Shown here in pieces: positions 8,134-64,000 of a DNA stretch of 64,000 bases (the stretch's first letter is position 1; every line of letters begins with the position of its first letter). The stretch lies in contig JAQIDC010000036.1 of assembly GCA_027858235.1 (NCBI GenBank), positions 10,664-74,663 of the forward strand, given 5' to 3'. A program made the position numbers and the translations under genes. The stretch comes from Patescibacteria group bacterium (GTDB lineage: Bacteria > Patescibacteriota > Patescibacteriia > Patescibacteriales > BM507). A model generated the notes under the pieces. That model did not search any database, was not told where the DNA came from, and worked only from the letters and a program-made list of their open reading frames with translations.

Positions 8134-8637
8134 TTAGTCTTCTTGGTCCTCTCTCCATTTTTTAAGTTTCTCTGCCTCCGCATCCAGTTTAGCTTCTGTT
8201 TGTTGTGAAACTCCTTTTCCTATCCCCCATATCTCCTCGGTTTCATCATTATTTCCCACAAATTCCTCAGGAGCTTCATCTGTGACAATCGTTTCAGTAA
8301 CAGAATTAGTCACACTATTATCAGGTTCACCTAAATTTTTCCATCTATCAGGAATACTTATATCAGAATATTCAGCTGATGACAATATTTCATAAACTAC
8401 AGGAACTAATTCTTTGTAAAACTCCTGAAGAAGACCATCGGTACGAAAGTATTTTTCACTACCTTCAATATTTTTTGCAACAGTTGAAATAAATATTTCA
8501 TTTAATTTTAATAGGTCATCATCACTATTTTTAGAACGTTCTAAATTAAGGGATGTATTAATAGCAGCTATTATTTTTTCTCTAGGTGGCAAAACTATTT
8601 TCTCAAGTCCTTGAAAAAAACTATCTTCATTAATCAT
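8134..8637 (-). CDS. Hypothetical acidic protein downstream of dnaJ
   Basis: 167 aa with an Asp/Glu-rich C-terminal half. There is a 16-nt gap after the dnaJ stop. No family recognised. Confidence 0.5.
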   Translation of the reverse strand: MINEDSFFQGLEKIVLPPREKIIAAINTSLNLERSKNSDDDLLKLNEIFISTVAKNIEGSEKYFRTDGLLQEFYKELVPVVYEILSSAEYSDISIPDRWKNLGEPDNSVTNSVTETIVTDEAPEEFVGNNDETEEIWGIGKGVSQQTEAKLDAEAEKLKKWREDQED

Positions 8638-8653
8638 TTTTTTATAATTAATA

Positions 8654-9724
8654 TTAAATATTTAAATCTTGTAAAATTTTCCTTTGTTTTTTATCTAAAT
8701 TTTTTGGAGTTAAAATAACAACTTTTACCAAATGATCCCCGCGTCCTCTTCCATTTAGTTTGTTCACTCCTCTGCCTTTCATCTTAAAAATAGTCCCTGA
8801 CTGAGTTCCTTCTGGTATTTTTAGTTTAACTACACCATCAACTGTTTCTACTTCTATTTTATCACCTAAAACAGCTTGAGTAAAACTAATTTCCTTTTTA
8901 GAGACAATGTCAATTCCTTCCCTAGAAAACCTTTTATCTTCCTTAACATTAACCCTGATATAAAGATCTCCCGCAGGAGCTCCCTTTTCTCCAGCCTCGC
9001 CGTTAGCAGGCATCCTTAAAGATTCACCGTTATCTATCCCGGCTGGAATTTTTATATTAAGTTTTATATTTTCTAGTGTTATTCCATGTCCATGACACTT
9101 AGTGCATTTCTGGGAAAATTCCTTCCCCTCGCCATTACAAGCAGGGCAAGTCGTTTGCGTCTGGATTGAACCAAGGATTGTTTGCTGAACTCTCGAAACA
9201 CGACCAGCACCATTACAAGTAGCGCAGGTTTCAACATCAGACCCAGGCTCCGCTCCTTCACCCTTACATTTATCACAAGTTGTTTTCTTTCTAATATTTA
9301 TTTCCTTCTCCACACCAAAAACTGCTTCAGAAAAATCAATGACTACATTTGTTTCTATATCAGATCCTCTCTGTGCTCTTTTTCTTCCTCCACCACCACC
9401 GAAGCCAAATATATCACCGAAGCCACCAAACATATCACCGAGGTCATCCATATTTATATTCATTCCGTCAAACCCACCAGGACCAGGTCCTCCAGCTCCA
9501 CCAGCTTGACCATTTTGAAAACCTGAACCAAATTGATCATACTGTGACTTTTTCTTAGCATCACCTAAAACCTGATAAGCTTCATTTATTTCTTTAAACT
9601 TTGCTTCATCTCCGGTTTTTTTATCTGGGTGATATTCATGAGCCTTTTTTCTAAAAGCTTTTTTTATTTCATCTTGAGAAGAACCCTTTTCAACTCCTAA
9701 AATTTTATAATAATCTTTTCCCAT
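8654..9724 (-). CDS. dnaJ: Molecular chaperone DnaJ (type I)
   Basis: J domain with HPD (AHEYHPDK), G/F-rich linker, and four CxxCxGxG zinc motifs (CDKCKGEG, CATCNGAG, CPACNGEG, CTKCHGHG). Confidence 0.95.
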   Translation of the reverse strand: MGKDYYKILGVEKGSSQDEIKKAFRKKAHEYHPDKKTGDEAKFKEINEAYQVLGDAKKKSQYDQFGSGFQNGQAGGAGGPGPGGFDGMNINMDDLGDMFGGFGDIFGFGGGGGRKRAQRGSDIETNVVIDFSEAVFGVEKEINIRKKTTCDKCKGEGAEPGSDVETCATCNGAGRVSRVQQTILGSIQTQTTCPACNGEGKEFSQKCTKCHGHGITLENIKLNIKIPAGIDNGESLRMPANGEAGEKGAPAGDLYIRVNVKEDKRFSREGIDIVSKKEISFTQAVLGDKIEVETVDGVVKLKIPEGTQSGTIFKMKGRGVNKLNGRGRGDHLVKVVILTPKNLDKKQRKILQDLNI

Positions 9725-9754
9725 TATTTTATTAACATATACACAAAATTATTT

Positions 9755-9789
9755 TGTTATGTGTTACATGTTTTATGTTATGTGATTTC
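9755..9789. repeat. Tandem heptamer array, 5 units (35 nt)
   Basis: TGTTATG TGTTACA TGTTTTA TGTTATG TGATTTC. It abuts the stop codon at 9790-9792 and lies 30 nt from the dnaJ ATG. Confidence 0.75.
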
Positions 9790-10101
9790 TTATCCTTTAA
9801 AGCCAATTTCTTTATCGTTTATTTTTGACTCTTCAATTTTACCAAATTTCTCTTCATATTTTGACAAATTATCACTAAGAGCTGCAACCATTCTCTTTAG
9901 ATGCCCAGGACTTGAGATTATTTTTCCTGTTACTTTTCCGCTACCTCCAAATATATTTAGGAACATCATCTGAATCTCGTCTTTAGTGTGATTAACTTGC
10001 ATTGCATTTGCATATTCCGCCCCTGGAATATTATCTGCTATTTTAATGTCCTGCCTTCCGCCAGGCATAGCTTTTTTTTCTTGTTTTTCTTGATTTGTCA
10101 T
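9790..10101 (-). CDS. DUF3467-like protein
   Basis: 103 aa. AEYANAMQVNHTKDEIQMMFLNI...GKIISSPGHLKRMVAALSDNLSKYEEKFG matches my recollection of the DUF3467 consensus (..YSN...I.HS..EF.LDF....RIIL.P.HAKRLL.AL..NI..YE). Confidence 0.6.
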   Translation of the reverse strand: MTNQEKQEKKAMPGGRQDIKIADNIPGAEYANAMQVNHTKDEIQMMFLNIFGGSGKVTGKIISSPGHLKRMVAALSDNLSKYEEKFGKIEESKINDKEIGFKG

Positions 10102-51802: not shown

Positions 51803-52834
51803 ATGTTTAATAAGAGAAAAAAACCAAAGGATAAAAAAATATTCAACATAAATATTGTTAGCTGGTTTCTTGGCATAGTTTTTTACTTTTCTTTTTTTGG
51901 CTACGTTTGGTCCCTTGATTTAATAAATGCAGTTATCTTCCTGTTAATAGCAATAATAACTTTTCCGCCTAGCTACAAACTTCTGGAAAATCAATTAAAA
52001 AAGCGTTATGATTTTAGCCTTGGAAGTATTCACAGACTTGCTTTAATAATTTCTTTATTTATAATTTTTAACCTCTTAAATCCATCTGAGCTTAATAAGG
52101 ATATAAGTTTAGAAAATTTGGATGATATAAAACCAAGCTCATTATTAAATCAATTTGAAAACACGGAAGAAAAAGTTGCGGAATCTAATGAAAATATTGA
52201 ACTCAAAAAACTTACTAGCTATAAAGTAATAGACGTTATTGATGGGGATACAATAAAAGTAAATATTGATAATCAAATAAAAACAGTTCGTCTCATTGGT
52301 ATAGATACTCCAGAAACAGTCCACCCCGAAAAACCAGTCGAATGCTTCGGCAGAGAATCTTCACAAAAGTTAAAAGAACTTCTCTCGGGAGCTGAAGTTT
52401 ACTTAGAAAAAGATAAAACTCAAGACAATCTAGACAAATACTCACGTCTTCTCCGTTATGTTTATCGTAATGATAATTTGTTTATCAATAAATGGATGAT
52501 TGAGAATGGCTATGCTTATGAATTTACATATGAAATACCCTATATTTACCAAAACGATTTTAAAGAAGCCGAAACAAGCGCCAAAAATAACAAATTAGGC
52601 TTATGGAGTGACGATGTTTGCATTGACTTTGATTCACAACCAACAGAAGAAAACAAAAAATATTGCCTAATAAAAGGCAATATTTCATACAACACCGGTG
52701 AGAAGATATATCATCATCTTGGATGTGATGAGTACGAAAAAACTATCATAAATACAGCTAAGGGTGAAAAATGGTTTTGCTCTGAAGAAGAGGCGCTTAA
52801 GGCTGGCTGGAGAGTGGCAGAAAGTTGTCCTTAA
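51803..52834 (+). CDS. Membrane-anchored thermonuclease (SNase) with a C-terminal Cys-containing domain
   Basis: 343 aa with N-terminal TMs and an SNase core (IDGDTIKV...VRLIGIDTPET...RLLRYVY). The C-terminal IKGNISYNTGEKIYHHLGC...WFCSEEEALKAGWR is a motif seen on secreted nucleases. Confidence 0.85.
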   Translation: MFNKRKKPKDKKIFNINIVSWFLGIVFYFSFFGYVWSLDLINAVIFLLIAIITFPPSYKLLENQLKKRYDFSLGSIHRLALIISLFIIFNLLNPSELNKDISLENLDDIKPSSLLNQFENTEEKVAESNENIELKKLTSYKVIDVIDGDTIKVNIDNQIKTVRLIGIDTPETVHPEKPVECFGRESSQKLKELLSGAEVYLEKDKTQDNLDKYSRLLRYVYRNDNLFINKWMIENGYAYEFTYEIPYIYQNDFKEAETSAKNNKLGLWSDDVCIDFDSQPTEENKKYCLIKGNISYNTGEKIYHHLGCDEYEKTIINTAKGEKWFCSEEEALKAGWRVAESCP

Positions 52835-53157
52835 TTTTGTTTCCTTTTGATAATCACCCAATAATATCGCCAATGAGAAAGTGTGTGAATGAAAGCGATA
52901 ACAGCCATAACCATTCCTATTCTAACATGGAGAGTTAAGAGTTGCGGATAAGACATCACGATTAAACCATAGTCAATAATAACTGCCATCACTATCCCCA
53001 GAAATGCTGAAGCTAGAAATGTAAAGAGTAAAACCACATTCCAAAATCGTCTTTGGTTTATTTTCTTTACTTTTCCAAATTTAACAAGCAAAAATGACCC
53101 AAAATAAAAAAGAAGGGTGAAAAATATTATTGTTAGCGTGTTATAGGCCTCTGCCAT
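52831..53157 (-). CDS. Membrane protein (DUF4405-like His-containing helices); probable 3' half of a split gene
   Basis: Start placed at MAEAYNTL (ATG 53157). It has 3 TM with HVRIGMVMAVIAFIHTLSHWRYY and overlaps the upstream ORF by 17 nt in another frame. Confidence 0.55.
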   Translation of the reverse strand: MAEAYNTLTIIFFTLLFYFGSFLLVKFGKVKKINQRRFWNVVLLFTFLASAFLGIVMAVIIDYGLIVMSYPQLLTLHVRIGMVMAVIAFIHTLSHWRYYWVIIKRKQN

Positions 53158-53446
53158 AATTTTGATTTTGAGTGGTTGATCTATCACAAAGTTTGTCGTA
53201 GTTTTGGTCAGTAAACAGAGTGCAGCGACCTGGGAGAGCACAAGCAAGACCACGAGGGCAAGTATTAGCTAAATTAACTGATGGTTTATCTAAGTTTCCA
53301 TTACCATTCTTTATTATTTCATCATCATTGTCCTGTGTGTTATTTGTGGTATTGCTATCGCTAACTGAACAACCTTGAACAAAAATCATCACCAAAAGAT
53401 AGCCAATAAAATATATTGATGTTTTTTTAGATTTGAATATATTCAT
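53141..53446 (-). CDS. Lipoprotein with a Cys-rich CPRGL...C...C motif; probable 5' half of a split gene
   Basis: 101 aa with lipobox FVQGC, then CPRGLACALPGRCTLFTDQNYDKLCD. Confidence 0.55.
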   Translation of the reverse strand: MNIFKSKKTSIYFIGYLLVMIFVQGCSVSDSNTTNNTQDNDDEIIKNGNGNLDKPSVNLANTCPRGLACALPGRCTLFTDQNYDKLCDRSTTQNQNYGRGL

Positions 53447-53499
53447 AAATTTGATTTTAAAGTTTAAACATTATAACATATAAACATTAATTAAAAAAA

Positions 53500-53994
53500 A
53501 TGAGAGTCCCAACAAGAAAACCAGGTATTTATACTCACGACAAAAAAGACCCCCACATAACTGAGTCTAAGTATTGTAGTTTAAAAAATAAACTACAAGT
53601 TTTAAAAAGCAGAAGACCAGCCTTGATTGATGAGGTTAAAAGACTCGCTCTTGATGGAGATTTTTCTGAAAATCACGCCTACAGCCTAGCTAAAGGTAAA
53701 CTAAGAGGTCTTAATCAGAAAATGCTAGAGATAGAAAATCATCTCAAAAAATCAATAATCATAAAGAAATCAAAATCGAATTTTATTGAAATTGGGTCCA
53801 CAGTAGAGGTGGAGGTGAACGGGAAAATAAAAGAATTAACCATACTGGGATCAAGTGAAACAAATCCAAGCACTGGCATAATATCGCACCTCTCCCCAAT
53901 CGGTGAAGCCCTGATAAATAGAAAAGTTGGACATGAAATATCTCTAAATATTAAAGATAGAACAATAAAATATAAAATAATTAAAATAAAATAA
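53500..53994 (+). CDS. greA: Transcription elongation (transcript cleavage) factor GreA
   Basis: 164 aa with coiled-coil motif GDFSENHAYSLAKGKL and a C-terminal FKBP-like domain (ISHLSPIGEALINRKVG). Confidence 0.85.
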   Translation: MRVPTRKPGIYTHDKKDPHITESKYCSLKNKLQVLKSRRPALIDEVKRLALDGDFSENHAYSLAKGKLRGLNQKMLEIENHLKKSIIIKKSKSNFIEIGSTVEVEVNGKIKELTILGSSETNPSTGIISHLSPIGEALINRKVGHEISLNIKDRTIKYKIIKIK

Positions 53995-54026
53995 AACTGT
54001 GATTTAAAGGTCACAGTTTTATTTTT
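53993..54026. terminator. Bidirectional rho-independent terminator
   Basis: Stem AAAACTGTGA/TCACAGTTTT with an 8-nt loop, A/T runs on both sides, between convergent greA and the sensor gene. Confidence 0.75.
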
Positions 54027-54034
54027 AAAAATCT

Positions 54035-57000
54035 CTAAACTTTTTTCTTACTTTTATTCGTAGTCTTTTTGATATTTTCTAATTCCTTTATTGTTTTTTT
54101 CATTTCTCTCATCTTTAATTCTCTACCCACCACCAAATCATTAAACTTTTCCATCTCCTCAACTTTTTCCTCAAGTTTTTTCTTATCTTTTTTTTGCTCA
54201 ATTAGTAATTTTTCTTTTTCTTTATTAATTATTTCTTCTTTTTTGAGTTGATTTTTAATAAATTCGGCCGTATTCCTTACTTCAGATGTTTTCTTATCAA
54301 CTTCTTTTCTTAATGACTTTGTTAAAAAATAACTAAAGAAAATTCCAGTAACTGCAAATGAGGCTAGAGCTATAAAAGTAAAAAACCAAATATTTTTCAT
54401 AGCACTATCTAATCCATGATATGCTTCCTTTTCTTCCCATACTGTAAGTAGAAAAATCTTTTTGTCTACAGCCTCAATTGGTTGATAATTAACTACTTGA
54501 TTTTCTCCATTAATAACAAATTCTATATATCCCTCTTTTTCTTCTTTAAAAATACTTTCTAAATCATTTTTTACTGCTTTGTATTTTTCCAATGTTAGAA
54601 TATTTTTTCCAAGATAATCATTAATCCCTGAGGTAATAATGTTCCCATCAGTTTCCAGCAAAAAAGATTCATTATTATGAATATGTTCAAGAAAGAAAGA
54701 AAGACTGCCAAAAAAATCGTTTGCATTAATAAATGAATCGACAATACCGTCAAAGTCTCCATTCTTGATTACTGGATATTGGAAGGCAATGCCTGGAAAC
54801 CCCTGTACTGCGTCAAAGATATCACTAAATACGGGACTCATAGTTTTCTTGAGCTTGATAACGTGTTCCTGCCCACCAATATCAATCCCAATTGCAGAAT
54901 CATCATTCGGATAAATATATTTTATAATATTGTCTTTATCTATTCTGGTAAAAGCGTGGACATAATCCTTGTTCCTCTCATAAGCTCCTTTCAATAAACT
55001 CAATCGGCATTCTTCACTGCAATCATCATTTGAATAATTTTCAGATATATATTCTAACTCCTTTTCCATATCTTCAAATAGCTCAAGAAGTTTTTCTGAC
55101 AAAAGATTACCTATCTCAAAATATTGTTTTCTATGGTTGTCTTTAAATTGACTCTTTAAATTATTAATAGTTGAGATAGAACCAAAAATGAACATCCCAC
55201 CAACTAGACTGAATAGAAAAATAAGAATTATTATCAAACTTGTTCTTTCTAGCTTCAAAATTTTAAAATAATATAATAATACTAAAAGAAACACAACAAC
55301 CACTAAAATAGAAATAAACAAATATATATATCTAAGATAATTAAAATTAAGAACTTCATTATTTTTCTGAACCAAGTCCTGGTCAGGCTCAATAAACTCT
55401 TTCTCATATTCATCTAAATACGTGGTGGCAGCAACACTTAGCCCAATACCGTCAGCCGTCTTAGCATCTACTATTGCGATATACATATACTTTTGAGTTA
55501 TAGTCCCATCTGCCTCTTCCCATGCATAGACTCCATCAGAAACAAGCCCACCCTCTGATTTGGACATAACATCCCAAAAACCTGGGAGCTTATTCTTTAA
55601 GGTATGTAAATCTAAATCTACTATTGCTGGATTAGTATGGTAGCGAGCCACTAAAGTATTATAATCAGTCACTGCAGTATAACCAGTTTTCCCAACTAAC
55701 TGCACGGCGATTTTCTGAAAATATGGGTCTTCTTGAAAATCTTTCACTGTCATTTCCGGGTTTCCTCTTAGGTAAATTTCCACTTGCTTAGCAACATCCT
55801 CCGCTTTTTGCTTTATAGCTAATTTTGAATATTCAAAGGAGTTCTTAATATTATATTCCTCTATATATTCTTCCGCGGTTTTTTTATCGATATATGAAGT
55901 AGCTCCTACAAATAGTTTCTTATTATCTGCTGTGGGGGTATCCACACAAGCCGTAACCATATATTTATCTGTTAAAGTCCCATTGCTTTCTTCCCATTCA
56001 TAATATCCAGATGAGTTTTTGCATTTAGGTCCAATTGATCCGCCATGAATTTTCCACCAATCAGGGAGTTGTTCTTTTAAAAGATGGGAATCTGTATTTA
56101 CTAATTTCTCTTGTGGATGAAGATAAAAATAACCTGATTCGCTATCCACAAGCCCTGTGTAACCTTCATCTCCGAGCCTTTGAACAGCAATAGATTTAAA
56201 AACATCATCTTTTTGCAAATCTTCAATCGTGAGCTCGGGGTGATTTATTAAGTACTCATCAATTTTTTCGGCAGTTTCCTTTGCGTACGATTGAATAAAT
56301 TCTACATCAACAGATTTATTTTCAACGAGAATCGGAGCTATCCATTCATTGTATATTTCATCAAATTGCCCACTAATGATAATTTTTGACAATCCATCAT
56401 TAAGCCTAGTTAATAATTCTGCATTCCCTTCTTGCACAGCAAAAGTAAAGTCTTGTTTGAAATTATCAATTTGAGAGACTGCAATAACATTATTTATTCC
56501 TAATTTTTTTATTAGTTGTTTTCCGACTATTTCTTGAATAATAATTGCGTCATATTTTCCTTCAGCCAGTAGAGTAAATGCTTCCTCATAGCTCTCAACT
56601 GCAATAATGTTATCTGATACCTTCTCGCGTCGTGCAAATTCCTCGGCATTATCTCCTGCCATTACAAGCACTTCTTTCCCCCATAGGTCAGATAATTTAT
56701 TTATATTATCATGATCTCTTCTAACAAAAATATTTCCATAAATAGAAATATAGGGAACGGTAAAATCATACAAGACTTCTCGCTCTGGAGTTCTCCCAAC
56801 CAAAGGTAATACGTCAATTCTTCCTTCTGTCAAATCTTCTTTTATTTCAGACCAAGGTCCAACATAAAACTCAACATCTAGATCCACAGCTTTAAGCGTA
56901 GCCTCTAATAACTCAACAGAAAAACCATCTGCTTGACCATCGTTAATAACAGAAAAAGGTGGATAATCGTATTCTGTTGCTGATTTAATAGTTGGAGTGG

Positions 57001-57115
57001 TTACTTCTCCATCAACAAAAAAATTGTCATTGCCGACAGCATTAACATGACTAAAGGTTATTAAACCTGAAAAAATTAATAGTCCTAAAAATAAAATCCT
57101 CCTTGTTATATTCAT
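54035..57115 (-). CDS. Multi-domain extracytoplasmic sensor-like protein lacking a recognisable output domain
   Basis: 1026 aa, in order: signal peptide; SBP_bac_3-like domain (EYDYPPFSV...GFSVELL); two paralogous sCache-like domains; TM hairpin; a third Cache-like region; a final TM; then ~90 aa of K/E coiled coil. Confidence 0.7.
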   Translation of the reverse strand: MNITRRILFLGLLIFSGLITFSHVNAVGNDNFFVDGEVTTPTIKSATEYDYPPFSVINDGQADGFSVELLEATLKAVDLDVEFYVGPWSEIKEDLTEGRIDVLPLVGRTPEREVLYDFTVPYISIYGNIFVRRDHDNINKLSDLWGKEVLVMAGDNAEEFARREKVSDNIIAVESYEEAFTLLAEGKYDAIIIQEIVGKQLIKKLGINNVIAVSQIDNFKQDFTFAVQEGNAELLTRLNDGLSKIIISGQFDEIYNEWIAPILVENKSVDVEFIQSYAKETAEKIDEYLINHPELTIEDLQKDDVFKSIAVQRLGDEGYTGLVDSESGYFYLHPQEKLVNTDSHLLKEQLPDWWKIHGGSIGPKCKNSSGYYEWEESNGTLTDKYMVTACVDTPTADNKKLFVGATSYIDKKTAEEYIEEYNIKNSFEYSKLAIKQKAEDVAKQVEIYLRGNPEMTVKDFQEDPYFQKIAVQLVGKTGYTAVTDYNTLVARYHTNPAIVDLDLHTLKNKLPGFWDVMSKSEGGLVSDGVYAWEEADGTITQKYMYIAIVDAKTADGIGLSVAATTYLDEYEKEFIEPDQDLVQKNNEVLNFNYLRYIYLFISILVVVVFLLVLLYYFKILKLERTSLIIILIFLFSLVGGMFIFGSISTINNLKSQFKDNHRKQYFEIGNLLSEKLLELFEDMEKELEYISENYSNDDCSEECRLSLLKGAYERNKDYVHAFTRIDKDNIIKYIYPNDDSAIGIDIGGQEHVIKLKKTMSPVFSDIFDAVQGFPGIAFQYPVIKNGDFDGIVDSFINANDFFGSLSFFLEHIHNNESFLLETDGNIITSGINDYLGKNILTLEKYKAVKNDLESIFKEEKEGYIEFVINGENQVVNYQPIEAVDKKIFLLTVWEEKEAYHGLDSAMKNIWFFTFIALASFAVTGIFFSYFLTKSLRKEVDKKTSEVRNTAEFIKNQLKKEEIINKEKEKLLIEQKKDKKKLEEKVEEMEKFNDLVVGRELKMREMKKTIKELENIKKTTNKSKKKV

Positions 57116-57216
57116 TTAATTATTATACCACAAAAAAACTCTATTTGTAATAAATATGATGGTTTAGAACAACAACTATTTTAAAACTCTGTTTTTGCGT
57201 TTAAAGACAAAATATT

Positions 57217-58257
57217 TTATCTTCCTCTTCCTCTCCCATTATTCACTTTCGATGGATCTTCCTTGTTGGGCCCCTTCATTTTAATAAAATGTTTAGCATT
57301 ATTTGTAATAGCTTTTGTTGAATTTATAATACCATTTATATTTTTTTGATCTTCATTCTCTATGGCTTCAGTAACAGTCTCCACTCTCTTGTCTAGTTTC
57401 TCGAAAAGAGCTTCAACGTCTGTTTCGTCATAGTCATCATCTTTTAAATCAATCTTTAGAGCTTCAACTTTTTCTTTAAGTTCCAAAAGTCTCTCAGTAT
57501 TTTCTAGGTCTTCTGTTATTCTATCGCTACTATTTTCTCCTTGTCCCATCAGTCTGTCGTCTGATTCAAGATTATTTGAACGTATTTGTCCATTATTAAA
57601 TTTTGTAGAACTAGCATTTCTCATCATTTCACCCCTTCCGTTATTATTCACTTGAATATTTTCTCCAATGTTATCCATCGCCGATGCAATATTTTCTACT
57701 AATTCATCATCCTCTTCAATACCGACAAAAGATGCTATGTTATTTAGCTTTTCTCTTTGATTTATACGACTTTGTTCGCTTCCATCTCCTTCTTTAAAAG
57801 CGATCTCTCTAGCCTTTTCCTTCAAAGCAACTGCCGCCTTAATTGTATTTGAGATAGCCACTCTGTCTTCATTTTCTTTTATGTTTTCACTCAAAACTTC
57901 TGCTTCACTCAGCCTTCTTTCAGAAAATTTTTCATATTTTTCTTGCTTTTCAATATCAGTATTCGCTACTTTTAATTCAATCTTTTCTATAGCTAATTTA
58001 ACAGGATATAAAATATGTTTTTCATTTACCCCAGGGCTTGCATAACTATACAAAGGGAGTCCAAACAATAAAGATAGAAGTAAAACAAAAGAGATAGCTC
58101 TATGTTGAAATTTCCTATTCAAAAGAAATTCAAAACTAAAACTTTCCTGAATAATCAAAACATATAGTTTATATTTCAAATTCATTTTTTTTACCAAACT
58201 CATTTTAGGTTTTGGTAAGCTATTCAATTGTTTATCTAACTTATTCATATTATTCAA
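57217..58257 (-). CDS. Membrane-anchored DUF5667-like protein, putative anti-sigma partner
   Basis: 346 aa with one TM (ISFVLLLSLLFGLPLY). YPVKLAIEKIELKVA...FSERRLSEAEVL resembles the DUF5667 consensus as I recall it. It overlaps the sigma gene by 8 nt. It has no Cys, so no ZAS motif. Confidence 0.5.
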   Translation of the reverse strand: MNNMNKLDKQLNSLPKPKMSLVKKMNLKYKLYVLIIQESFSFEFLLNRKFQHRAISFVLLLSLLFGLPLYSYASPGVNEKHILYPVKLAIEKIELKVANTDIEKQEKYEKFSERRLSEAEVLSENIKENEDRVAISNTIKAAVALKEKAREIAFKEGDGSEQSRINQREKLNNIASFVGIEEDDELVENIASAMDNIGENIQVNNNGRGEMMRNASSTKFNNGQIRSNNLESDDRLMGQGENSSDRITEDLENTERLLELKEKVEALKIDLKDDDYDETDVEALFEKLDKRVETVTEAIENEDQKNINGIINSTKAITNNAKHFIKMKGPNKEDPSKVNNGRGRGR

Positions 58258-58735
58258 TATCTTCTCTTAATTTATTCAGAGCTCTGTTCAGCTGTACTCT
58301 AACCGCATTCACCTCTTTGTCTAAAATTTCGGCTATCTCCTTGTTGTCCAGTTCGTCAACATATCTCATTATTACAACTTCTCTTGAATAATCATCCAAT
58401 TTTCCAATATGCTTCATTATTCGCTCAACCTCAATGCTTGTATTTATTTTTTGCAAAGTTTCAACTGATAGATCCAGAGCACTCTCAAGGTCAACTTCCC
58501 TCCCTCTCGTTCTATAGTGATTTAACAAATGATTTTTAGCTATTCTGTATATCCAGGACTGAAAAGATCTAGTTTCATCGAAGCTATCATGACTCTTAAA
58601 TGCTTTCAAAAATATTTCCGAGCACAAATCCTCTGCCGTTGTCTTATCAAAACCAACTCGATACCAAATATAGGCATAAATCTTATCAACATACTTATTA
58701 TAGTTCGCTAGAAAATTTTTATTGTCTTTTGACAT
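58250..58735 (-). CDS. ECF-type RNA polymerase sigma factor (sigma-70 regions 2 and 4)
   Basis: 161 aa. Region 2: FLKAFKSHDSFDETRSFQSWIYRIAKNHLLNHYR. Region 4: VVIMRYVDELDNKEIAEILDKEVNAVRVQLNRALNKLR. Confidence 0.88.
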   Translation of the reverse strand: MSKDNKNFLANYNKYVDKIYAYIWYRVGFDKTTAEDLCSEIFLKAFKSHDSFDETRSFQSWIYRIAKNHLLNHYRTRGREVDLESALDLSVETLQKINTSIEVERIMKHIGKLDDYSREVVIMRYVDELDNKEIAEILDKEVNAVRVQLNRALNKLREDIE

Positions 58736-58757
58736 AAACCTGTTAAATACTCAGATA

Positions 58758-58766
58758 ATTATAGCA
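58758..58766 (-). promoter_or_regulatory. Extended -10 element (TGCTATAAT) upstream of the sigma gene
   Basis: Minus strand reads TGCTATAAT 22 nt upstream of ATG 58735, the same nonamer as at 38059-38067. No clear -35. Confidence 0.4.
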
Positions 58767-58865
58767 CTTTAGCAGTAAATCATCTTTTTTTCAACTGGCT
58801 TACCTTTTATATGAGATTCTTTTATATTATTTTTTGGCCCAGGCCACCTTCTCTGCCTTCGTCAT

Positions 58866-60419
58866 TCACCTTGTCTTTCCTCTACTTTTGTTCAATGAGC
58901 TCATTATACTTCCTTTTTCTTGTCCTGACATTTTACCACTCTTTTTTAATGAGTTTGTAAGGTGAGCCATTTCACTAACGTATTGACCGTGATTTTTGTA
59001 GCCATTATCTTCACCCTCATATTCTCCATTGTGATTTTGGTGTTGATATTGATATGAATAGCCGTCACCGTCATTATCGCAATCGCCATCTCCATCACAG
59101 TCGCAATTACAATCATTGTCGTTATTATTAACGCCTTCATCAATTCTACCATCGCAATCATTATCAATGTTATCATCAAGTTCCGTAGCCCCAGGATAAA
59201 CTGTATCATTATTATCATCACAATCATCGTCATTATCAACGTAACCGATTGGAGTATCAAATGCTTCAACAAAGCTAAGAGCATTTCCGTAACCATCTCC
59301 GTCGTTGTCAACATAATAAGTATTAAATACTTCATCAACAATTTCGTTGCAATTATTATCAATATCATCATCAAGTTCAGAAGCTCCTGGATAAACTGTA
59401 TTATTGTTATTATCACAGTCACCATCGTTAGCCACATAGTTATTTTCAGCAACGCAAGCAAGTATTATATTAGTGTCAATACCATAGCCATCGCCATCAC
59501 CATCGTAATAAAAAGTACTTTTAACATTCTCATCGATTAAACTATCGCAATCATTATCAATACCATCACAAACTTCACCAGCATTTGGATAGATGCTTGA
59601 ATCATTATCATTACAATCAATATTATTTTCTACAAAACCTTCTGGAGCTTCCATGGCAATACTTGTGCTAGCATCACTTCCATATCCATCTCCGTCCTCG
59701 TCAATATAAAATGTTCTATCAACAAAGCCCTCATCAACATCACTATCACAATCGTCATCAATTGAGTTATAAATTTCTGTTGCTCCTGGGTATACATCCA
59801 TATCATCATCATTACAATCATCATTCAATGAAGCATATCCGACAGGTGCTGCGCAGGACTCAGTAGTACTAGCAGTAAATCCATATCCGTCAGCATCATC
59901 GTCTAGATAATAAGTAGTTGTTACTCCTTCATCAACACTCCCATCACAATTTTGATCAACTCCATCACAAATTTCAGTAGCATTAGGATTTGTACTTGAA
60001 GCCATATCATCACAATCGCCACTTACTTCTACATAATCGATACTTGGAGCCGAGCAAGCTAGTGTTGAAGTACCAATTTCTCCAAAACCATCAGCATCAA
60101 AATCATAATAATAAGCTGTTTGGACTCCTTCATCATCTATATCCCCACTACAATTATTGTCTACTCCGTCGCAAAGCTCATCTGCTTCAGGGTGGATTGA
60201 ACTATCATTATCATCACAATCACTAGAATCTAAAACATAACCAGATGGAGAAGTTGTACTAGCAATTGAAACAGCAGAATCTCCATACCCATCACCGTCT
60301 GTGTCTAGATAATAAGTTTGCGTAGTGTCGGCATTTACAGCAAATAGAACTCCTGCTCCAAAAACTAAAGAAAGTGAAACAAGCGCTACATTCGCCAAAA
60401 GATTGTTTGTAAATTTCAT
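58866..60419 (-). CDS. Secreted Asp/Cys-rich protein with six MopE-like putative metal-binding repeats
   Basis: 517 aa with a signal peptide and six ~65-aa repeats (Y.D.DGDGYG ... DCDD.D..I.PGA.E.CDG.DNDCD..IDE). The tail is DCNCDCDGDGDCDNDGDGY followed by an H/Q/Y/N-rich segment. Confidence 0.8.
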   Translation of the reverse strand: MKFTNNLLANVALVSLSLVFGAGVLFAVNADTTQTYYLDTDGDGYGDSAVSIASTTSPSGYVLDSSDCDDNDSSIHPEADELCDGVDNNCSGDIDDEGVQTAYYYDFDADGFGEIGTSTLACSAPSIDYVEVSGDCDDMASSTNPNATEICDGVDQNCDGSVDEGVTTTYYLDDDADGYGFTASTTESCAAPVGYASLNDDCNDDDMDVYPGATEIYNSIDDDCDSDVDEGFVDRTFYIDEDGDGYGSDASTSIAMEAPEGFVENNIDCNDNDSSIYPNAGEVCDGIDNDCDSLIDENVKSTFYYDGDGDGYGIDTNIILACVAENNYVANDGDCDNNNNTVYPGASELDDDIDNNCNEIVDEVFNTYYVDNDGDGYGNALSFVEAFDTPIGYVDNDDDCDDNNDTVYPGATELDDNIDNDCDGRIDEGVNNNDNDCNCDCDGDGDCDNDGDGYSYQYQHQNHNGEYEGEDNGYKNHGQYVSEMAHLTNSLKKSGKMSGQEKGSIMSSLNKSRGKTR

Positions 60420-60510: not shown

Positions 60511-61263
60511 TTAAATTAAAGTAGAAATATAAAATAGTAGAAATAAGACTGGTTGGTGAGCTAAATATACAAACAAGGAGTTCTTTCCCAAATAAGACAT
60601 ACTTTTTGACACAAAGTTGTTGTTTTCAAAATTGAATATATATAACCTATCACTACCCTTGTAAAACAATTGCGCCCAGAAAATGCCAAACAATACTATT
60701 CCAAACCAAGGAAATATTGGAAAATAATCTAATGTTGAAAAATTTTCTGGGATGAAACCAAAAGGTAATACAAGGTGAATGACGAAGTCAGAGAGGGTGG
60801 CCTGGGCCAAATAAGAAAAATCAAAATAGTTATTTTTCAATATCCCCCCGCCAACAATAAACAAAACACCAATAAATAAATTTAGATACCTTAGTTTAAT
60901 AAAAAAATAAGAGAGAACAATTGCTACACCTATGAAATGTAGTATTCCAAATATTATGTATTCACTGGGAAATATAATTCTTGTAACGATGGTTATTAAG
61001 ACCCCAAAAGAAAAAACTTTCAAACCTCTTTTTAAAAACGTTCTAAACTCTGGATTGGATTTTTGAGAACTCAAGAATGACGAAACACCAACCAAAAATA
61101 TAAACAGAGAAGCAGTCAAGGTTTGAAATATTTTCCAAAAACCAAAACCAAAATTGACTTCAACGCTATAAAAATAATTCAAATCCCAAACAAAATGAAA
61201 AACGACCATCATAAGAATAGCCACCCCTCTCATAAAATCAATTTCCCAAAATCTTTTAGACAT
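60511..61263 (-). CDS. DUF1624 / heparan-alpha-glucosaminide N-acetyltransferase-like membrane acyltransferase
   Basis: 250 aa, polytopic, with N-terminal RFWEIDFMRGVAILMMVVFHF, typical of the family. Confidence 0.7.
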   Translation of the reverse strand: MSKRFWEIDFMRGVAILMMVVFHFVWDLNYFYSVEVNFGFGFWKIFQTLTASLFIFLVGVSSFLSSQKSNPEFRTFLKRGLKVFSFGVLITIVTRIIFPSEYIIFGILHFIGVAIVLSYFFIKLRYLNLFIGVLFIVGGGILKNNYFDFSYLAQATLSDFVIHLVLPFGFIPENFSTLDYFPIFPWFGIVLFGIFWAQLFYKGSDRLYIFNFENNNFVSKSMSYLGKNSLFVYLAHQPVLFLLFYISTLI

Positions 61264-61943: not shown

Positions 61944-64000
61944 TTATTCCATCAAAGTCTCCTCAATATTATTAATTCCAGCCAACACAGCTTCTAGCTG
62001 TGCTGGGTCTGTTGAGAAATCATTCATTCCCGCTCTACTCCAATCATAATCAAGATGATTTAATCTAGCGTATTGGTCTTCTTCCCAAACATGAACTGAC
62101 CATCCCCAAATCTCGTCTGAATATTCTTTATTCATCAAATTCATCATATCAAGTAACCAAAGCTCCGCTCCTGGTGCTTCTCTATTCACGGCAAATTCGG
62201 CAAGATAAACTTGAACTCCATATTCCTTATAAAAATTACCTACAGTATCTGCAAAAAGATTATCAATCATTTCATAATTCCAAGTTGTTTCGCCATAATG
62301 CTCTTCGTCATAAGTTCCTGGATAAGCATTATATTCAACATTACCATACCAAGCCTCCTCTTGAATAGTAAACTGAATCGGTCTGTAGCCATGAACTGAT
62401 GCTGCTATATTTTCATCATTCAATACAGCTATAGATGGAATCCAATCAGATAATGATTCTGTTTTCCAGGAATATGCTGGAGTTGCAACTATTAAATGAG
62501 TATCATTATTTTCTCTAATTGTATCGATTAAGCTATCTTGTAAATCATACCAAAGATATCCTTTATCTTCATTTGGGTCATAGTCTGTTTTTGGTTCTGG
62601 TTCATTGAACAATTCATATACAACAGCTTCACTGTCTCTATCTTTCATTAATTGAGACAATTGATCCCAAACCGTAACAAGAAGCTCTCGATATTCTTCA
62701 CCGGCACTTATATTTTCTGCAACATCCCACATCCTAGTATCTTTTGGCTTGTCCTCTGAAATAAACCAACGATTTAATCCTGGAATTTCATGAACATCAA
62801 CAATAACTTTTATTCCATATTCTTTTCCTAATGCTAAAACTGAATTTAGCTTATCAATATTTTCAGGCAAGATGGTTCTTGATGAACTAGCTAAATTAAA
62901 ATCAACGCTCGGTTCTAGAAGATCACCATCCATTAGCATTAAACGAACAGTTGAGACGCCATTTTCAGAAAAATATTCAAAATCATTTCTACCTACTGTA
63001 TTATAAACAGTAACTCCACGATTATAATCTTCATAAGTTACTGGGTCTACAACTGGATCAACTATCGGATCCTCATCAACAGAGTCTTCAATTACTAGAT
63101 CTTCGTCAATTGGTTCGTCTCCATCAGGAATAACATCAAAAGCTTTTTTACCATACAATTCGAATCCTTCTCCTGTATCTAGATAATACCAAAATTCTAA
63201 GTGACCAGCTTGAGCATTATAATATGCTGGGAAAAAATTACTATAAGCCCAGCCAGCTCCAACGTTTTGCCAATCAGTATCATAAGTCCACATTAACTCT
63301 TCTCCGTTATGCAATTCGACTCTATATCTATGGTCAACATAAATATTTCTAACCTGTGCCATTAGATAAACGTTTTCGCCTTCGTTAAAAGTATTGCTTA
63401 CTTTTAGTGGTTTTAGATTCCAATGATCATTATCTCCTCCATGCTCCCACTCAGTGGCAGTCACAGCATGATCAAAAACTAATTCATCCATTTCTCCTTC
63501 AACTGAAAATGCCTTATTCTCAAGAAGTTTATAACCATCTCCGGTATTTATATAAATTCTAAATCTATAATTACCTGGTTGGGCATCAGAAAATGTTGGT
63601 AAGAAATTTGCATAGGTCCAACCTGTTCCAACTTCTCTCCATGGGGTTTCATACTCCCACAACATATCATCTCCCTTAAGAACCTCTACCTTCCATTGAT
63701 GGTTGCGATAAATATTCTTTACTTGAGATAGTGCAAAAATTGTTTCTCCTTTAGAAAAAACATTTTTTTGCCCAGTTGGTTTTATATCCCAATAAGCCCC
63801 TTCGTTCTCATCTCCATGTTCCCAACCAGAGCTTAAATATGTATGACGATAAGTGTGTTCTTCAAGATCTCCCACAACTCTAAAATCAGTGTTAGCAATA
63901 TTAAAAAATCCTACGCCTGTATCAATATACACCTTGAACTTATAATTTCCTGGTTGTGTATTAGTATAGCTTGGATAAAAATTACTATATTCCCATTTTT
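61944..64000 (-). CDS. GH5-family glycoside hydrolase with N-terminal tandem ~115-aa repeats; 5' end off the right window edge
   Basis: C-terminal catalytic domain with acid/base LFNEPEP and nucleophile YLAEFAV. The ORF-track start at 63932 is an internal GTG. The frame stays open to 64000 and encodes another repeat (KWEYSNFYPSYTNTQPGNYKFKV). Confidence 0.8.
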   Translation of the reverse strand, partial: KWEYSNFYPSYTNTQPGNYKFKVYIDTGVGFFNIANTDFRVVGDLEEHTYRHTYLSSGWEHGDENEGAYWDIKPTGQKNVFSKGETIFALSQVKNIYRNHQWKVEVLKGDDMLWEYETPWREVGTGWTYANFLPTFSDAQPGNYRFRIYINTGDGYKLLENKAFSVEGEMDELVFDHAVTATEWEHGGDNDHWNLKPLKVSNTFNEGENVYLMAQVRNIYVDHRYRVELHNGEELMWTYDTDWQNVGAGWAYSNFFPAYYNAQAGHLEFWYYLDTGEGFELYGKKAFDVIPDGDEPIDEDLVIEDSVDEDPIVDPVVDPVTYEDYNRGVTVYNTVGRNDFEYFSENGVSTVRLMLMDGDLLEPSVDFNLASSSRTILPENIDKLNSVLALGKEYGIKVIVDVHEIPGLNRWFISEDKPKDTRMWDVAENISAGEEYRELLVTVWDQLSQLMKDRDSEAVVYELFNEPEPKTDYDPNEDKGYLWYDLQDSLIDTIRENNDTHLIVATPAYSWKTESLSDWIPSIAVLNDENIAASVHGYRPIQFTIQEEAWYGNVEYNAYPGTYDEEHYGETTWNYEMIDNLFADTVGNFYKEYGVQVYLAEFAVNREAPGAELWLLDMMNLMNKEYSDEIWGWSVHVWEEDQYARLNHLDYDWSRAGMNDFSTDPAQLEAVLAGINNIEETLME

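What the first reader, a model, noticed from the sequence alone, without database searches (positions are those of the whole stretch)
54035..57115. Giant extracytoplasmic sensor that ends in a bare coiled coil, with no kinase, cyclase or MCP output
The sequence shows, in order:
- a signal peptide;
- an amino-acid-binding-protein-like SBP_bac_3 domain (residues ~45-260);
- two paralogous ~135-aa sCache-like domains (HPELTIEDLQKDDVFKSIAVQRLGDEGYTG... vs NPEMTVKDFQEDPYFQKIAVQLVGKTGYTA...; both end in a W.EE..GT...KYM...V....AD pattern);
- a TM hairpin;
- a third external region of ~240 aa;
- a last TM;
- only ~90 cytoplasmic residues of Lys/Glu coiled coil, ending ...EKFNDLVVGRELKMREMKKTIKELE.

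From memory, an RFN.LMVGRELRM.ELK-type helix is the linker that precedes PAS/HisKA modules in many sensor kinases. Here the ORF stops right after it, and the next elements are a bidirectional terminator and the convergent greA. Three or four ligand-binding modules therefore feed a helix with no enzymatic transmitter.

The gene is the last in a co-directional string: MopE-like protein, ECF sigma, DUF5667 protein, sensor. This suggests signalling by protein-protein contact with the sigma/anti-sigma pair, which as far as I know is not a described architecture.
Basis: partly seen in the sequence, partly recalled or inferred. Interest (0 to 1): 0.72.

Follow-up and report, generated by a model that had tools for sequence, protein, structure and literature searches.

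The report
Kinase-less sensor with conserved docking tail
This gene from a tiny-genome (Patescibacteria) bacterium encodes an intact four-module membrane sensor with no enzyme of its own; its short conserved end helix, found across Bacteria and Archaea and not described in anything I could search, probably plugs the sensor into a separately encoded histidine kinase.

Summary
ORF 54035-57115(-) encodes 1026 aa: signal peptide, SBP_bac_3, two paralogous PAS/Cache-like domains, a TM hairpin, a dCache domain, a last TM, and a 96-aa helix with no transmitter domain. It is not a truncation. The identical protein occurs in independent assemblies, and homologues end the same way.

(1) The tail motif is not a linker. 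In 110 occurrences from 80 genomes it lies 18-57 aa from the stop codon in 106, and no kinase domain ever follows it. (2) Linkage to the ECF sigma/DUF5667 pair is not conserved.

The tail (ELExF-x3-VGRELKMxELKxxIxxL) is instead a widespread C-terminal module. It sits on PAS, HAMP, Cache, CHASE, REC and Amt inputs, and has no match in Pfam, NCBIfam, PDB or the searched literature. In 38 of 61 informative loci a co-directional gene 1-4 genes downstream carries a second conserved coil motif, xA(L)LN(I/L/M)(L/M)ED. That gene is usually a histidine kinase, often translationally coupled. A fused Falkowbacteria protein equals tail sensor plus kinase at a syntenic locus.

Most likely the tail docks the sensor onto such a kinase in trans. 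This step is inferred. In this window the partner is not nearby.

The parts
54035..57115 (-). Complete sensor ORF, 1026 aa plus TAG stop. It is GenBank MDA3840149.1, Patescibacteria group bacterium.
57038..57115 (-). Signal peptide or N-terminal anchor, residues 1-26 (...FSHVNA/VG).
   Evidence: Hydropathy. Cleavage is inferred from the sequence.
56339..56989 (-). SBP_bac_3 (amino-acid-binding type II periplasmic binding protein) domain, residues 43-259.
   Evidence: Pfam E 6e-27. The best PDB sequence match is 3h7m 'Sensor protein', E 1e-29.
55856..56305 (-). PAS/Cache-like repeat 1, residues about 271-420. No Pfam model matches.
55409..55837 (-). PAS/Cache-like repeat 2, residues about 427-569, 40% identical to repeat 1.
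55175..55330 (-). TM hairpin: TM 596-616, short basic loop KILKLERTS, TM 625-647.
54473..55111 (-). dCache-type double-PDC ectodomain, residues 669-881.
   Evidence: PF22309 E 9e-17; dCache_1 below its cut-off. PDB 5ere E 3e-16. AF2 model.
54326..54394 (-). Last TM, residues 908-930, followed by the conserved juxtamembrane motif LTKSLRKEVxxKTxE.
54038..54325 (-). Cytoplasmic Lys/Glu-rich helix, residues 931-1026. It is continuous with TM4 in the model.
54080..54157 (-). Conserved C-terminal tail module, residues 987-1012: EMEKFNDLVVGRELKMREMKKTIKEL. R998, E999, M1002 and K1006 are invariant in the family.
53988..54025 (.). Hairpin terminator shared with the convergent greA gene.
57122..57151 (-). 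Promoter-like site (ATTACA-18-TATAAT with TG) in the 101-nt gap in front of the sensor gene. It suggests the sensor has its own transcription unit, but it is only a consensus match.
57217..60419 (-). MopE-repeat protein, ECF sigma and DUF5667 protein. This is a neighbouring block, not part of the system; it is absent from the syntenic relative L005.

Best explanation
The gene encodes an intact, transmitter-less, multi-input membrane sensor of a Patescibacteria (CPR) bacterium. Outside the cell it carries an amino-acid-type SBP_bac_3 domain, two PAS/Cache-like domains and a dCache domain. Inside it carries only a long helix ending in a roughly 27-residue module (ELExF-x3-V-G-R-E-L-K-M-x-E-L-K-x-x-I-x-x-L).

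Shown: this module is the C-terminal hallmark of a very large family of sensor proteins in Bacteria and Archaea, a family I found described nowhere. The proteins have input domains but no output domain. They are typically encoded just upstream of a histidine kinase (once an HD-GYP protein) that carries a second conserved, acidic coil motif, xA(L)LN(I/L/M)(L/M)ED, ahead of its PAS/GAF/DHp part. One or two CheY-like receivers follow the kinase.

Inferred: ligand-induced movement of the sensor's helix is passed on in trans. The basic tail helix packs against the kinase's LNxLED coil and changes its autophosphorylation. The tail would thus replace the covalent sensor-to-kinase connection seen in fused paralogues such as P0004. 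Several tail sensors could converge on one kinase.

In this window the sensor is an 'orphan' copy. Its kinase is not within about 80 kb and would be elsewhere in the roughly 1-Mb genome. In related CPR genomes the likely locus is RR-HK-[sensor]-HK-REC next to type IV pilus genes.
For: 1. The tail is a conserved terminal module.
- 19 of the 150 best full-length hits carry it, always 20-50 aa from their end, and none has HisKA, HATPase or GGDEF.
- A genome scan gave more than 600 pattern matches, of which 391 were confirmed. The 80 loci kept span CPR, DPANN, methanogen relatives, Desulfuromonadales, Planctomycetota, Nitrospirota, Bacteroidota and others.
- Among 110 occurrences the median distance to the stop codon is 26 aa.
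- Positions not fixed by the search pattern are 79-98% conserved: E-10, L-9, E-8, F-6, V-1, G0, L3, E7, L8, I12 and L15.

2. The carriers have only input domains: PAS 52, HAMP 25, dCache 9, REC 4, CHASE 3 and Amt 3 of 99. None of 104 has a kinase core.

3. Directional linkage to the second motif.
- 26 of 72 next co-directional genes are HisKA+HATPase kinases.
- 38 of 61 loci with at least 2.5 kb downstream have an LNxLED-bearing gene at +1 to +4.
- 46 of the 47 LNxLED-bearing ORFs among 897 lie downstream of a tail gene.
- Background is about 3 of about 85 unrelated SBP_bac_3 kinases.
- The gap to an LNxLED gene directly downstream is at most 7 nt in 23 of 26 cases.

4. Gene fusion versus split. 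P0004 (1550 aa, fused, 44% identical to the window protein over residues 40-1023) lies in a locus RR-x-x-HK-[P0004]-REC-PilB-PilC. The syntenic locus L094 holds the tail sensor P0007, then an overlapping 699-aa kinase whose residues 97-699 are 57% identical to P0004 residues 946-1550.

5. Some downstream kinases are only 314-380 aa, with no Pfam-detected input domain in the one scanned (L081). They have 1-4 tandem 21-residue LNxLED repeats directly before the H-box, so they need an external input.

6. An Amt-tail protein followed by an LNxLED-like kinase (L027) parallels the fused ammonium sensor kinase Ks-Amt5 (PMC5764959).

7. The tail is net basic and the LNxLED segment strongly acidic. The tail has hydrophobic residues on more than one face around VGRELKMI.
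Against: - No direct evidence of binding. The docking step rests on gene neighbourhood, the fusion/split comparison and charge complementarity.
- No LNxLED kinase lies in the 64-kb window or in about 10 kb beyond either end. The closest relatives P0002, P0012 and P0003 are also orphans.
- 23 of 61 informative loci lack a downstream LNxLED gene. In the Geobacter-type subgroup (L018, L030, L077) tandem tail genes sit next to kinases without the motif.
- Both motifs are too invariant for covariation analysis.
- The AF2 monomer shows only a straight helix, with modest confidence (pLDDT 62-70) at the motif.
Confidence: 0.6

Rival explanations
1. The tail only caps and stabilises the sensor's own homodimeric coiled coil. 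The protein acts without docking to a kinase coil. It might be a ligand-binding or scaffold protein, or it might influence paralogous kinases (P0004-like) through ectodomain or transmembrane hetero-oligomerisation.
For: - The window copy and its nearest relatives have no adjacent kinase.
- Kinase paralogues share the same ectodomains and TM segments.
- AF2 shows a plain helix.
Against: - A mere cap would not need invariant surface residues (R, E, K, E, K) conserved from DPANN archaea to Proteobacteria.
- It would not explain the directional linkage to a second specific motif.
- Soluble PAS-only and REC-only carriers have no membrane or ectodomain part through which to heteromerise.
Confidence: 0.2
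2. The tail is a degenerate first DHp helix: VGRELRM resembles the HisKA_3 H-box IARELHD, with His replaced by Arg or Lys. It would act as a pseudo-kinase stub that inserts into a kinase's DHp bundle or binds a response regulator.
For: - A five-residue resemblance, noted from my own knowledge of HisKA_3 H-boxes.
- Kinases and CheY-like receivers are adjacent.
Against: - No HisKA-family hit in the tail even at E 0.1.
- The heptad pattern after the motif differs from DHp helix 1.
- This reading does not explain the specific enrichment of LNxLED, which lies upstream of the DHp domain.
Confidence: 0.1
3. One reading: the sensor signals by contact with the co-directional ECF sigma / DUF5667 (anti-sigma-like) pair.
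For: - Co-directional order MopE, sigma, DUF5667, sensor in the window and in identical contigs.
- DUF5667 has a TM segment.
Against: - The block is missing in the syntenic relative L005 and in all other close homologues.
- An ECF sigma lies near only 2 of 80 tail loci; DUF5667 and MopE near none.
- A 101-nt gap with a promoter-like site separates the DUF5667 gene from the sensor gene, whereas the sigma and DUF5667 genes overlap.
Confidence: 0.05
4. The gene is a truncated or decaying histidine kinase, or an assembly or recoding artefact.
For: Kinase-bearing paralogues exist with the same N-terminal 1000 residues (P0004, P0019).
Against: - The identical sequence occurs in four independent contigs.
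- The end is a conserved motif, not a random break.
- Dozens of 50%-identity clusters and more than 100 genomic copies end the same way.
- Stop codons are mixed: TAA 47, TGA 37, TAG 18.
- A terminator and the convergent greA follow the gene, and this position is conserved in P0002 and P0012.
Confidence: 0.03

Closest known systems
Fused CPR sensor histidine kinases of the same family (P0004 = KKQ54244.1, Candidatus Falkowbacteria, 1550 aa; also P0019, P0042)
   Same: P0004 is 44% identical over window residues 40-1023. It has the same order of SBP_bac_3, two PAS/Cache-like repeats, TM hairpin, dCache, TM, juxtamembrane LTRSLRxE motif and the first part of the coil.
   Different: After the shared coil these proteins continue with QRMAILNILED, then GAF/PAS, HisKA and HATPase_c. 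The window protein instead ends with the GRELKM tail.
Methyl-accepting chemotaxis proteins and phototransducers (Tar, PctA-type dCache MCPs, HtrII)
   Same: A ligand-binding ectodomain (Cache, PBP) and TM helices, then a purely helical cytoplasmic part with no enzyme activity, which controls a separately encoded histidine kinase through helix contacts.
   Different: The window protein has no MCPsignal domain, no methylation helices and no HAMP, and no CheA or CheW context. Its helix is about 95 aa and single, not a 200-aa hairpin. Its partners are ordinary HisKA kinases.
Accessory or co-sensor proteins and split histidine kinases (split-kinase theory PMC3591291; Hik36-Hik43 of Synechocystis PMC7656254; from my own knowledge UhpC-UhpB, LuxP-LuxQ, YycHI-WalK)
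   Same: Sensing and kinase functions lie on separate polypeptides that are encoded together.
   Different: Known cases use idiosyncratic contacts or split the DHp/HPt part from the CA part. Here one short conserved helix and one conserved acceptor motif recur across phyla and across many input-domain types.
Venus-flytrap (SBP_bac_3) sensor kinases: BvgS (PDB 4q0c, 3mpk) and the Geobacter sensor domain 3h7m
   Same: An amino-acid-type periplasmic binding domain used as a sensor rather than for transport. 3h7m is the best PDB sequence match, E 1e-29.
   Different: Those are covalently linked to PAS, HisKA and HATPase transmitters.
Ks-Amt5 ammonium sensor histidine kinase (PMC5764959)
   Same: An Amt module used as the input for a histidine kinase. 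L027 (Planctomycetota) has an Amt-tail protein followed by a kinase with an LNxLED-like motif (AINIMKD).
   Different: In Ks-Amt5 the kinase is fused. In L027 the Amt protein ends in the tail and the kinase is a separate gene. This parallel concerns the family, not the window gene itself.

Membership tests
Sensor histidine kinase (HisKA/HATPase_c) | A DHp domain with a phospho-acceptor His (H-box) | tested here: not met
   No HisKA-family hit at E<=0.1. The 96-aa tail contains no His.
Sensor histidine kinase (HisKA/HATPase_c) | A catalytic ATP-binding domain (HATPase_c) | tested here: not met
   There is no hit. The ORF ends 30 aa after the motif, and only a terminator and greA lie downstream. 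phmmer with kinase cores finds nothing in the window.
Methyl-accepting chemotaxis protein | An MCPsignal hairpin domain | tested here: not met
   No Pfam hit. The AF2 model shows a single straight helix.
Cyclic-nucleotide or c-di-GMP output proteins (GGDEF, EAL, HD-GYP, Guanylate_cyc) | The respective catalytic domain | tested here: not met
SBP_bac_3 (type II amino-acid-binding protein fold) | A Pfam PF00497 match above the gathering score | tested here: met
   94.4 bits against a cut-off of 26.4, residues 43-259. PDB relatives reach E 1e-29. Ligand specificity was not tested.
dCache (double PDC) extracytoplasmic sensor | A long N-terminal helix plus two PDC modules between two TM segments | tested here: met
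   PF22309 scores 61.8 bits against a cut-off of 27; dCache_1 scores 33.7, below its cut-off of 45. The AF2 secondary structure shows two alpha/beta modules between helices 2-56 and 261-385 of the fragment.
sCache/PAS-like fold (the two 135-150-aa repeats) | A PAS/PDC-type alpha/beta fold | tested here: met
   AF2 pLDDT 87.7. The top Foldseek PDB hits are dCache ligand-binding domains (Tlp1, TlpA, PctC) and tandem PAS proteins, E about 1e-7, but TM-scores are only 0.2-0.3 because the two modules are oriented differently. No Pfam Cache family matches, so assignment to a named Cache family is open.
GRELKM-tail sensors (family defined here) | The motif ELExF-x3-V[GDN]RE[LI][KR]Mx[ED]LK with invariant R, E, M and K | tested here: met
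   EMEKFNDLVVGRELKMREMK at residues 987-1006. One deviation: M1005 where 98% of members have L.
GRELKM-tail sensors (family defined here) | The motif lies 18-57 aa from the C-terminus and no transmitter domain is present | tested here: met
   30 aa from the motif's first residue (G997) to the stop codon.
GRELKM-tail sensors (family defined here) | A co-directional downstream gene carries the xALLNxLED coil motif (seen in 62% of informative loci) | tested here: not met
   No such motif and no kinase in the window or in about 10 kb beyond either end. This is a frequent feature of the family, not a universal one.
Tail to LNxLED docking (proposed mechanism) | Physical interaction between the two helices | not testable with these tools
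   Only monomer prediction was available, and chimeric inputs are not accepted.

The most novel reading that the evidence does not exclude
The GRELKMxELK tail and the 21-residue xALLN(I/L)LED repeats form a universal plug-and-socket pair. It lets kinase-less sensors of any input type (Cache, SBP, PAS, HAMP, CHASE, REC, Amt) drive histidine kinases, and occasionally HD-GYP enzymes, in trans in both Bacteria and Archaea. Several sensors could share one kinase. That would be a previously unrecognised modular layer of two-component signalling, especially common in CPR and DPANN organisms.
Probability: 0.45. Interest if true: 0.88.

Novelty: new variant of a known kind. Interest (0 to 1): 0.78.

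Why it matters
Censuses of prokaryotic signalling classify proteins by their output domain. Proteins with input domains only are usually set aside as 'unknown output'. The evidence here suggests that a large share of them, from CPR and DPANN symbionts to Geobacter relatives and Planctomycetota, share a short C-terminal helix that no domain library models. Their genes are coupled to kinases that carry a matching motif.

If the helix is a docking element, three things follow:
- It gives these sensors a pathway.
- It explains short histidine kinases that have no detected input domain.
- It provides a simple rule for predicting, and perhaps engineering, which sensors talk to which kinases, including many sensors feeding one kinase.

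In CPR bacteria the clusters often sit next to type IV pilus genes. The system may therefore link nutrient or host-derived cues to attachment.

Tried and rejected
- A word-indexed homology search with residues 639-1026 returned nothing, because 8000 candidates were saturated by Lys/Glu words. A first attempt used the wrong reading frame. A 31-aa tail alignment was below the tool's 40-aa minimum.
- The tail-profile search of the 5.8-billion-protein set returned only fragments of 76 aa or less. That shows breadth and C-terminal position, but not architectures. Those came from the genome scan.
- Rfam found nothing in the window.
- Full-text searches for the tail strings, the LNxLED strings, and concept terms such as 'split histidine kinase' found no description of either motif.
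- A PDB profile search with the tail found only chance coiled-coil matches, E >= 0.9.
- Truncation, assembly error and stop-codon recoding were considered and rejected.
- A split single gene (readthrough into the next ORF) was rejected. The six downstream kinases I scanned or read have their own N-terminal TM, sensor or repeat regions.
- I looked for covariation between tail and LNxLED residues in 46 adjacent pairs. Both motifs are too invariant to be informative.
- The HisKA_3 H-box resemblance is kept only as a low-probability rival.
- I looked for a partner kinase in the window and on longer contigs and found none.
Full report
**1.

ORF 54035..57115 on the minus strand encodes 1026 residues.

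- Pfam places SBP_bac_3 at residues 43-259 (E 6e-27). It places the HK/GC/chemotaxis sensor family PF22309 at 680-794 (E 9e-17), inside a sub-threshold dCache_1 match at 669-881.
- Nothing matches in residues 260-600 or 931-1026. No HisKA, HATPase_c, GGDEF, MCPsignal or HAMP appears even at E 0.1.
- The two internal repeats are real paralogues: 40% identity over 146 aa, E 2e-35.
- An AF2 model of residues 262-585, built on 17 homologues (pLDDT 87.7), gives two helix-plus-sheet modules. Their best PDB fold matches are dCache ligand-binding domains and tandem PAS proteins.
- Hydropathy gives a signal peptide and three TM segments at 596-616, 625-647 and 908-930.
- An AF2 model of residues 640-1026 (pLDDT 82.9) shows a double-PDC domain followed by one uninterrupted helix from residue 900 to 1024.
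- The stop codon is followed by a 15-bp-stem hairpin and the convergent greA gene.
- The protein is GenBank MDA3840149.1 from a Patescibacteria-group MAG. The identical sequence occurs on four contigs from different assemblies. The end of the ORF is therefore not an error.

**2. The tail is an end module, not a linker**

An exhaustive phmmer search of 1.84 billion representative proteins gave 20,483 hits, mostly through the SBP domain.

- Among the best 150 hits, 19 others carry the motif [V/I/T]x[G/D/N]RE[L/I/F][K/R]Mxx[L/M]K, always 20-50 residues from their C-terminus.
- None of them has a transmitter domain. They carry SBP_bac_3, dCache, PAS or Cache_3-Cache_2.
- Kinase-bearing homologues (P0004, P0019, P0025, P0042) share the ectodomains, the last TM and the first part of the coil. 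P0004, P0019 and P0042 then diverge into '...QRMAILNILED...' followed by GAF/PAS, HisKA and HATPase; P0025 has no such motif.

A profile of the tail found 250 hits at E<=10 among 5.8 billion proteins. The 120 best listed have E-values from 2e-14 to about 5e-10. All are short fragments that end 25-45 residues after the motif. Their source names include Nealsonbacteria, Pacebacteria, Elusimicrobia and Tichowtungia.

The 80 loci kept come from CPR phyla, DPANN archaea, Methanoperedenaceae, Methanomassiliicoccaceae, Thermoplasmata, Desulfuromonadales, Planctomycetota, Nitrospirota, Bacteroidota, Verrucomicrobiales, Spirochaetes, Chloroflexi, Omnitrophota, Margulisiibacteriota and Gammaproteobacteria.

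- In these loci I found 110 motif occurrences. The distance to the stop codon has a median of 26 aa. It is 18-57 aa in 106 of the 109 complete cases and 91-99 aa in three.
- Tandem paralogues are common, up to six in 16 kb.
- Of 239 non-redundant tails, positions not constrained by my pattern are 79-98% conserved: E-10, L-9, E-8, F-6, V-1, G0, L3, E7, L8, I12 and L15. Conservation of charged surface positions from DPANN to Proteobacteria argues for a specific interface rather than a generic coiled coil.

**3. What the tail is attached to**

Pfam scans of 99 complete tail-bearing ORFs found only input or relay domains: PAS in 52, HAMP in 25, a diguanylate-cyclase-like sensor domain in 13, dCache in 9, REC, HisKA_7TM and GAF in 4 each, CHASE and ammonium transporter in 3 each, plus MASE3 and PocR. 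None of 104 tail ORFs matches a kinase core by phmmer. The tail therefore occupies the position where a transmitter would normally be.

**4. A second motif in the neighbours**

- The next co-directional gene is a complete HisKA+HATPase kinase in 26 of 72 cases.
- The six kinases I scanned or read have their own N-terminal TM, sensor or repeat regions, so this is not one gene split by a stop codon.
- Reading them showed a recurring coil motif, xA(L/T)(L/I)N(I/L/M)(L/M)(E/D)D followed by acidic residues, placed before the PAS/GAF or H-box.
- With a strict pattern, 36 of 70 kinases in the loci have it. All 36 lie +1 to +4 genes from a tail gene, and none of the 7 upstream kinases has it. It occurs in 5 of 827 non-kinase ORFs and in none of 104 tail ORFs.
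- With an HMM of the motif, 38 of 61 loci with at least 2.5 kb of downstream sequence have an LNxLED-bearing gene within four genes. Of the 47 bearers among 897 ORFs, 46 lie downstream of a tail gene.
- When the LNxLED gene follows directly, the gap is at most 7 nt in 23 of 26 cases, often an ATGA overlap. Tail stop codons are mixed, which argues against recoding.
- When the kinase is at +2, the intervening gene is often a solute-binding protein, judged from the ones I scanned (NMT1 in L014 and L087, SBP_bac_5 in L034) and from the family counts among downstream genes.
- 34 of the 37 small ORFs after these kinases are CheY-like receivers.
- Background: among the 97 kinases in the 150 representative hits, 11 have the motif. 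Most of those 11 are paralogues of the window protein, leaving about 3 of about 85 unrelated SBP_bac_3 kinases.
- Some downstream kinases are only 314-380 aa, with 1-4 tandem 21-residue LNxLED repeats directly before the H-box. The one I scanned with Pfam (L081) has no detected input domain.
- One LNxLED-like motif sits in a PAS-HD-GYP protein downstream of a tail gene.

**5. Fusion versus split at one locus**

P0004 (Falkowbacteria, 1550 aa) is 44% identical to the window protein over residues 40-1023. Its locus reads RR - x - x - HK - [P0004] - REC - PilB - PilM - PilC - pilins.

In GCA_030631305.1 the syntenic locus reads RR - x - x - 7TM-HK - [P0007, a 928-aa tail sensor] - overlapping 699-aa kinase - REC - PilB - PilC - pilin. 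Residues 97-699 of that kinase, including 'QRLATLNILED', are 57% identical to P0004 residues 946-1550.

One fused protein in one genome thus corresponds to tail sensor plus LNxLED kinase in another. This is classical evidence that the two separate proteins act in one pathway.

Related loci fit the same picture:

- L086 has a PAS-tail protein, the tail sensor P0022, a 1343-aa kinase with 'AMLNILED', and a REC.
- L087 has a PAS-tail protein, the tail sensor P0014, an NMT1 binding protein, and a further ORF cut by the contig end.
- An Amt-tail protein followed by a kinase with an LNxLED-like motif (L027, Planctomycetota) parallels the fused ammonium sensor kinase Ks-Amt5 (PMC5764959).

**6. Mechanism: what is shown and what is inferred**

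Shown:

- The family, its C-terminal position and the absence of a transmitter.
- The directional and tight linkage to LNxLED-bearing kinases.
- The fusion/split equivalence.

Inferred:

- The tail helix physically packs on the LNxLED coil. The tail is net basic, and has an invariant Arg at a core 'd' position in my heptad assignment, with extra hydrophobic residues on other faces around VGRELKMI. The LNxLED coil is strongly acidic, with Asn and Ala invariant.
- Conformational changes from the sensor's coil thereby reach the kinase's DHp domain.

I could not run a multimer prediction or a genome-wide co-occurrence test.

**7. The window copy**

- It carries the motif with one deviation, M1005 where 98% of members have L.
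- It has no kinase and no LNxLED motif in the 64-kb window or in about 10 kb beyond either end.
- Its position against convergent greA, SNase and MgtE is shared by P0012 and P0002. It is therefore a conserved orphan location rather than a remnant.
- The MopE/ECF-sigma/DUF5667 block lies between the Acyl_transf_3 gene and the sensor only in this lineage. It is absent in L005. Across 80 tail loci an ECF sigma appears twice, and DUF5667 and MopE never.
- The sigma and DUF5667 genes overlap each other. A 101-nt gap containing a promoter-like site separates them from the sensor gene.

**8. Comparison with known systems and novelty**

In function the protein resembles a chemoreceptor: a ligand-binding ectodomain plus a purely helical cytoplasmic part that controls a separate kinase. 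It also resembles accessory sensors and split kinases (PMC3591291, PMC7656254). It meets none of the defining features of MCPs or histidine kinases.

I found neither the tail nor the LNxLED repeat in Pfam-A (2025 copy), NCBIfam 20, the PDB sequence set or the searchable literature. I therefore rate it a new variant of a known kind: trans-acting receptor to kinase coupling through a conserved helix pair. The caveat is that the subscription literature could not be searched.

**9. Unexplained**

- The Geobacter/Desulfuromonadales-type tails (N-x-E-L-x-x-M-N-K-x-F-V-G-R-E-L-K-M) occur in tandem arrays next to kinases without LNxLED.
- Three CPR tails carry an extra conserved extension of about 70 aa.
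- 38% of informative loci, including this window, have no nearby acceptor.

Noticed in passing
window 57217-60419 (-): The MopE-repeat protein, ECF sigma and DUF5667 protein form a block inserted between the Acyl_transf_3 gene (60511-61263) and the sensor. The syntenic relative L005 goes straight from Acyl_transf_3 to the sensor. The sigma and DUF5667 genes overlap by 8 nt, which is typical of a sigma/anti-sigma pair.
   Followed up: partly
L088, L089, L094, L095; also L007, L010, L015, L024, L031, L069, L071, L072, L073, L082, L083: In CPR genomes the tail-sensor / LNxLED-kinase / CheY-like receiver clusters often lie next to type IV pilus genes (PilB-like ATPase, PilC, PilM, pilins). PilB homologues occur in 11 of the 80 tail loci. 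Pilus control may be the output.
   Followed up: partly
L011:7818-8345, L024:7620-8327, L048:7182-8345: Three tail proteins continue for about 70 more residues after the motif, with a shared sequence (...KTWAARFKEAINLEEDV...). This small extra C-terminal element has unknown meaning.
   Followed up: no
L045:8132-9181: An LNxLED-like motif (AFFNMLED) lies between the PAS and HD-GYP (HD_5) domains of the gene directly after a tail gene. The acceptor motif may therefore not be restricted to histidine kinases.
   Followed up: partly
L018 (Desulfuromonadaceae), L030, L077 (Geobacteraceae/Geobacter), L078 (Nitrospirae): Tandem arrays of up to six tail genes with a distinct flavour (NxELxxMNKxFVGRELKMVELKxRIxELE). 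The neighbouring kinases lack the LNxLED motif. This is unexplained.
   Followed up: no
L027:6591-8189 and 8185-10020: An ammonium-transporter (Amt) protein ends in the tail. It is followed, with overlap, by a Tll0287-like histidine kinase with an LNxLED-like motif (AINIMKD) in a Planctomycetota MAG. This is a split counterpart of the fused ammonium sensor kinase Ks-Amt5.
   Followed up: partly
L074:961-1977, L081:4346-5479, L084:5549-6544, L065:6475-7455, L070:8134-9108: These histidine kinases are only 325-380 aa long. The N-terminus consists of 2-4 tandem 21-residue repeats (TQ+A-L-L-N-I-L-D/E-D-x-x-E-E-+). Pfam, run on L081 only, finds nothing in this region.
   Followed up: partly
window 1-64000: GC content is about 33%. 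GC skew is negative in every 2-kb bin except 52001-54000, and nearly all long ORFs are on the minus strand. No replication origin or terminus signature is visible in the window.
   Followed up: no
window 58946-59461 (-): A 171-aa ORF lies in another frame inside the MopE-repeat gene. It is rich in I/M/T/L and is almost certainly a by-product of the D/N/G-rich repeats, not a gene.
   Followed up: no
window 61944-63932 (-); L090:7429-9912: A large protein (called as 827 aa in the JGI contig) has two internal repeats and no Pfam hit on record. Just beyond the window's right end lie a Y1 transposase and a MazE-like antitoxin gene.
   Followed up: no
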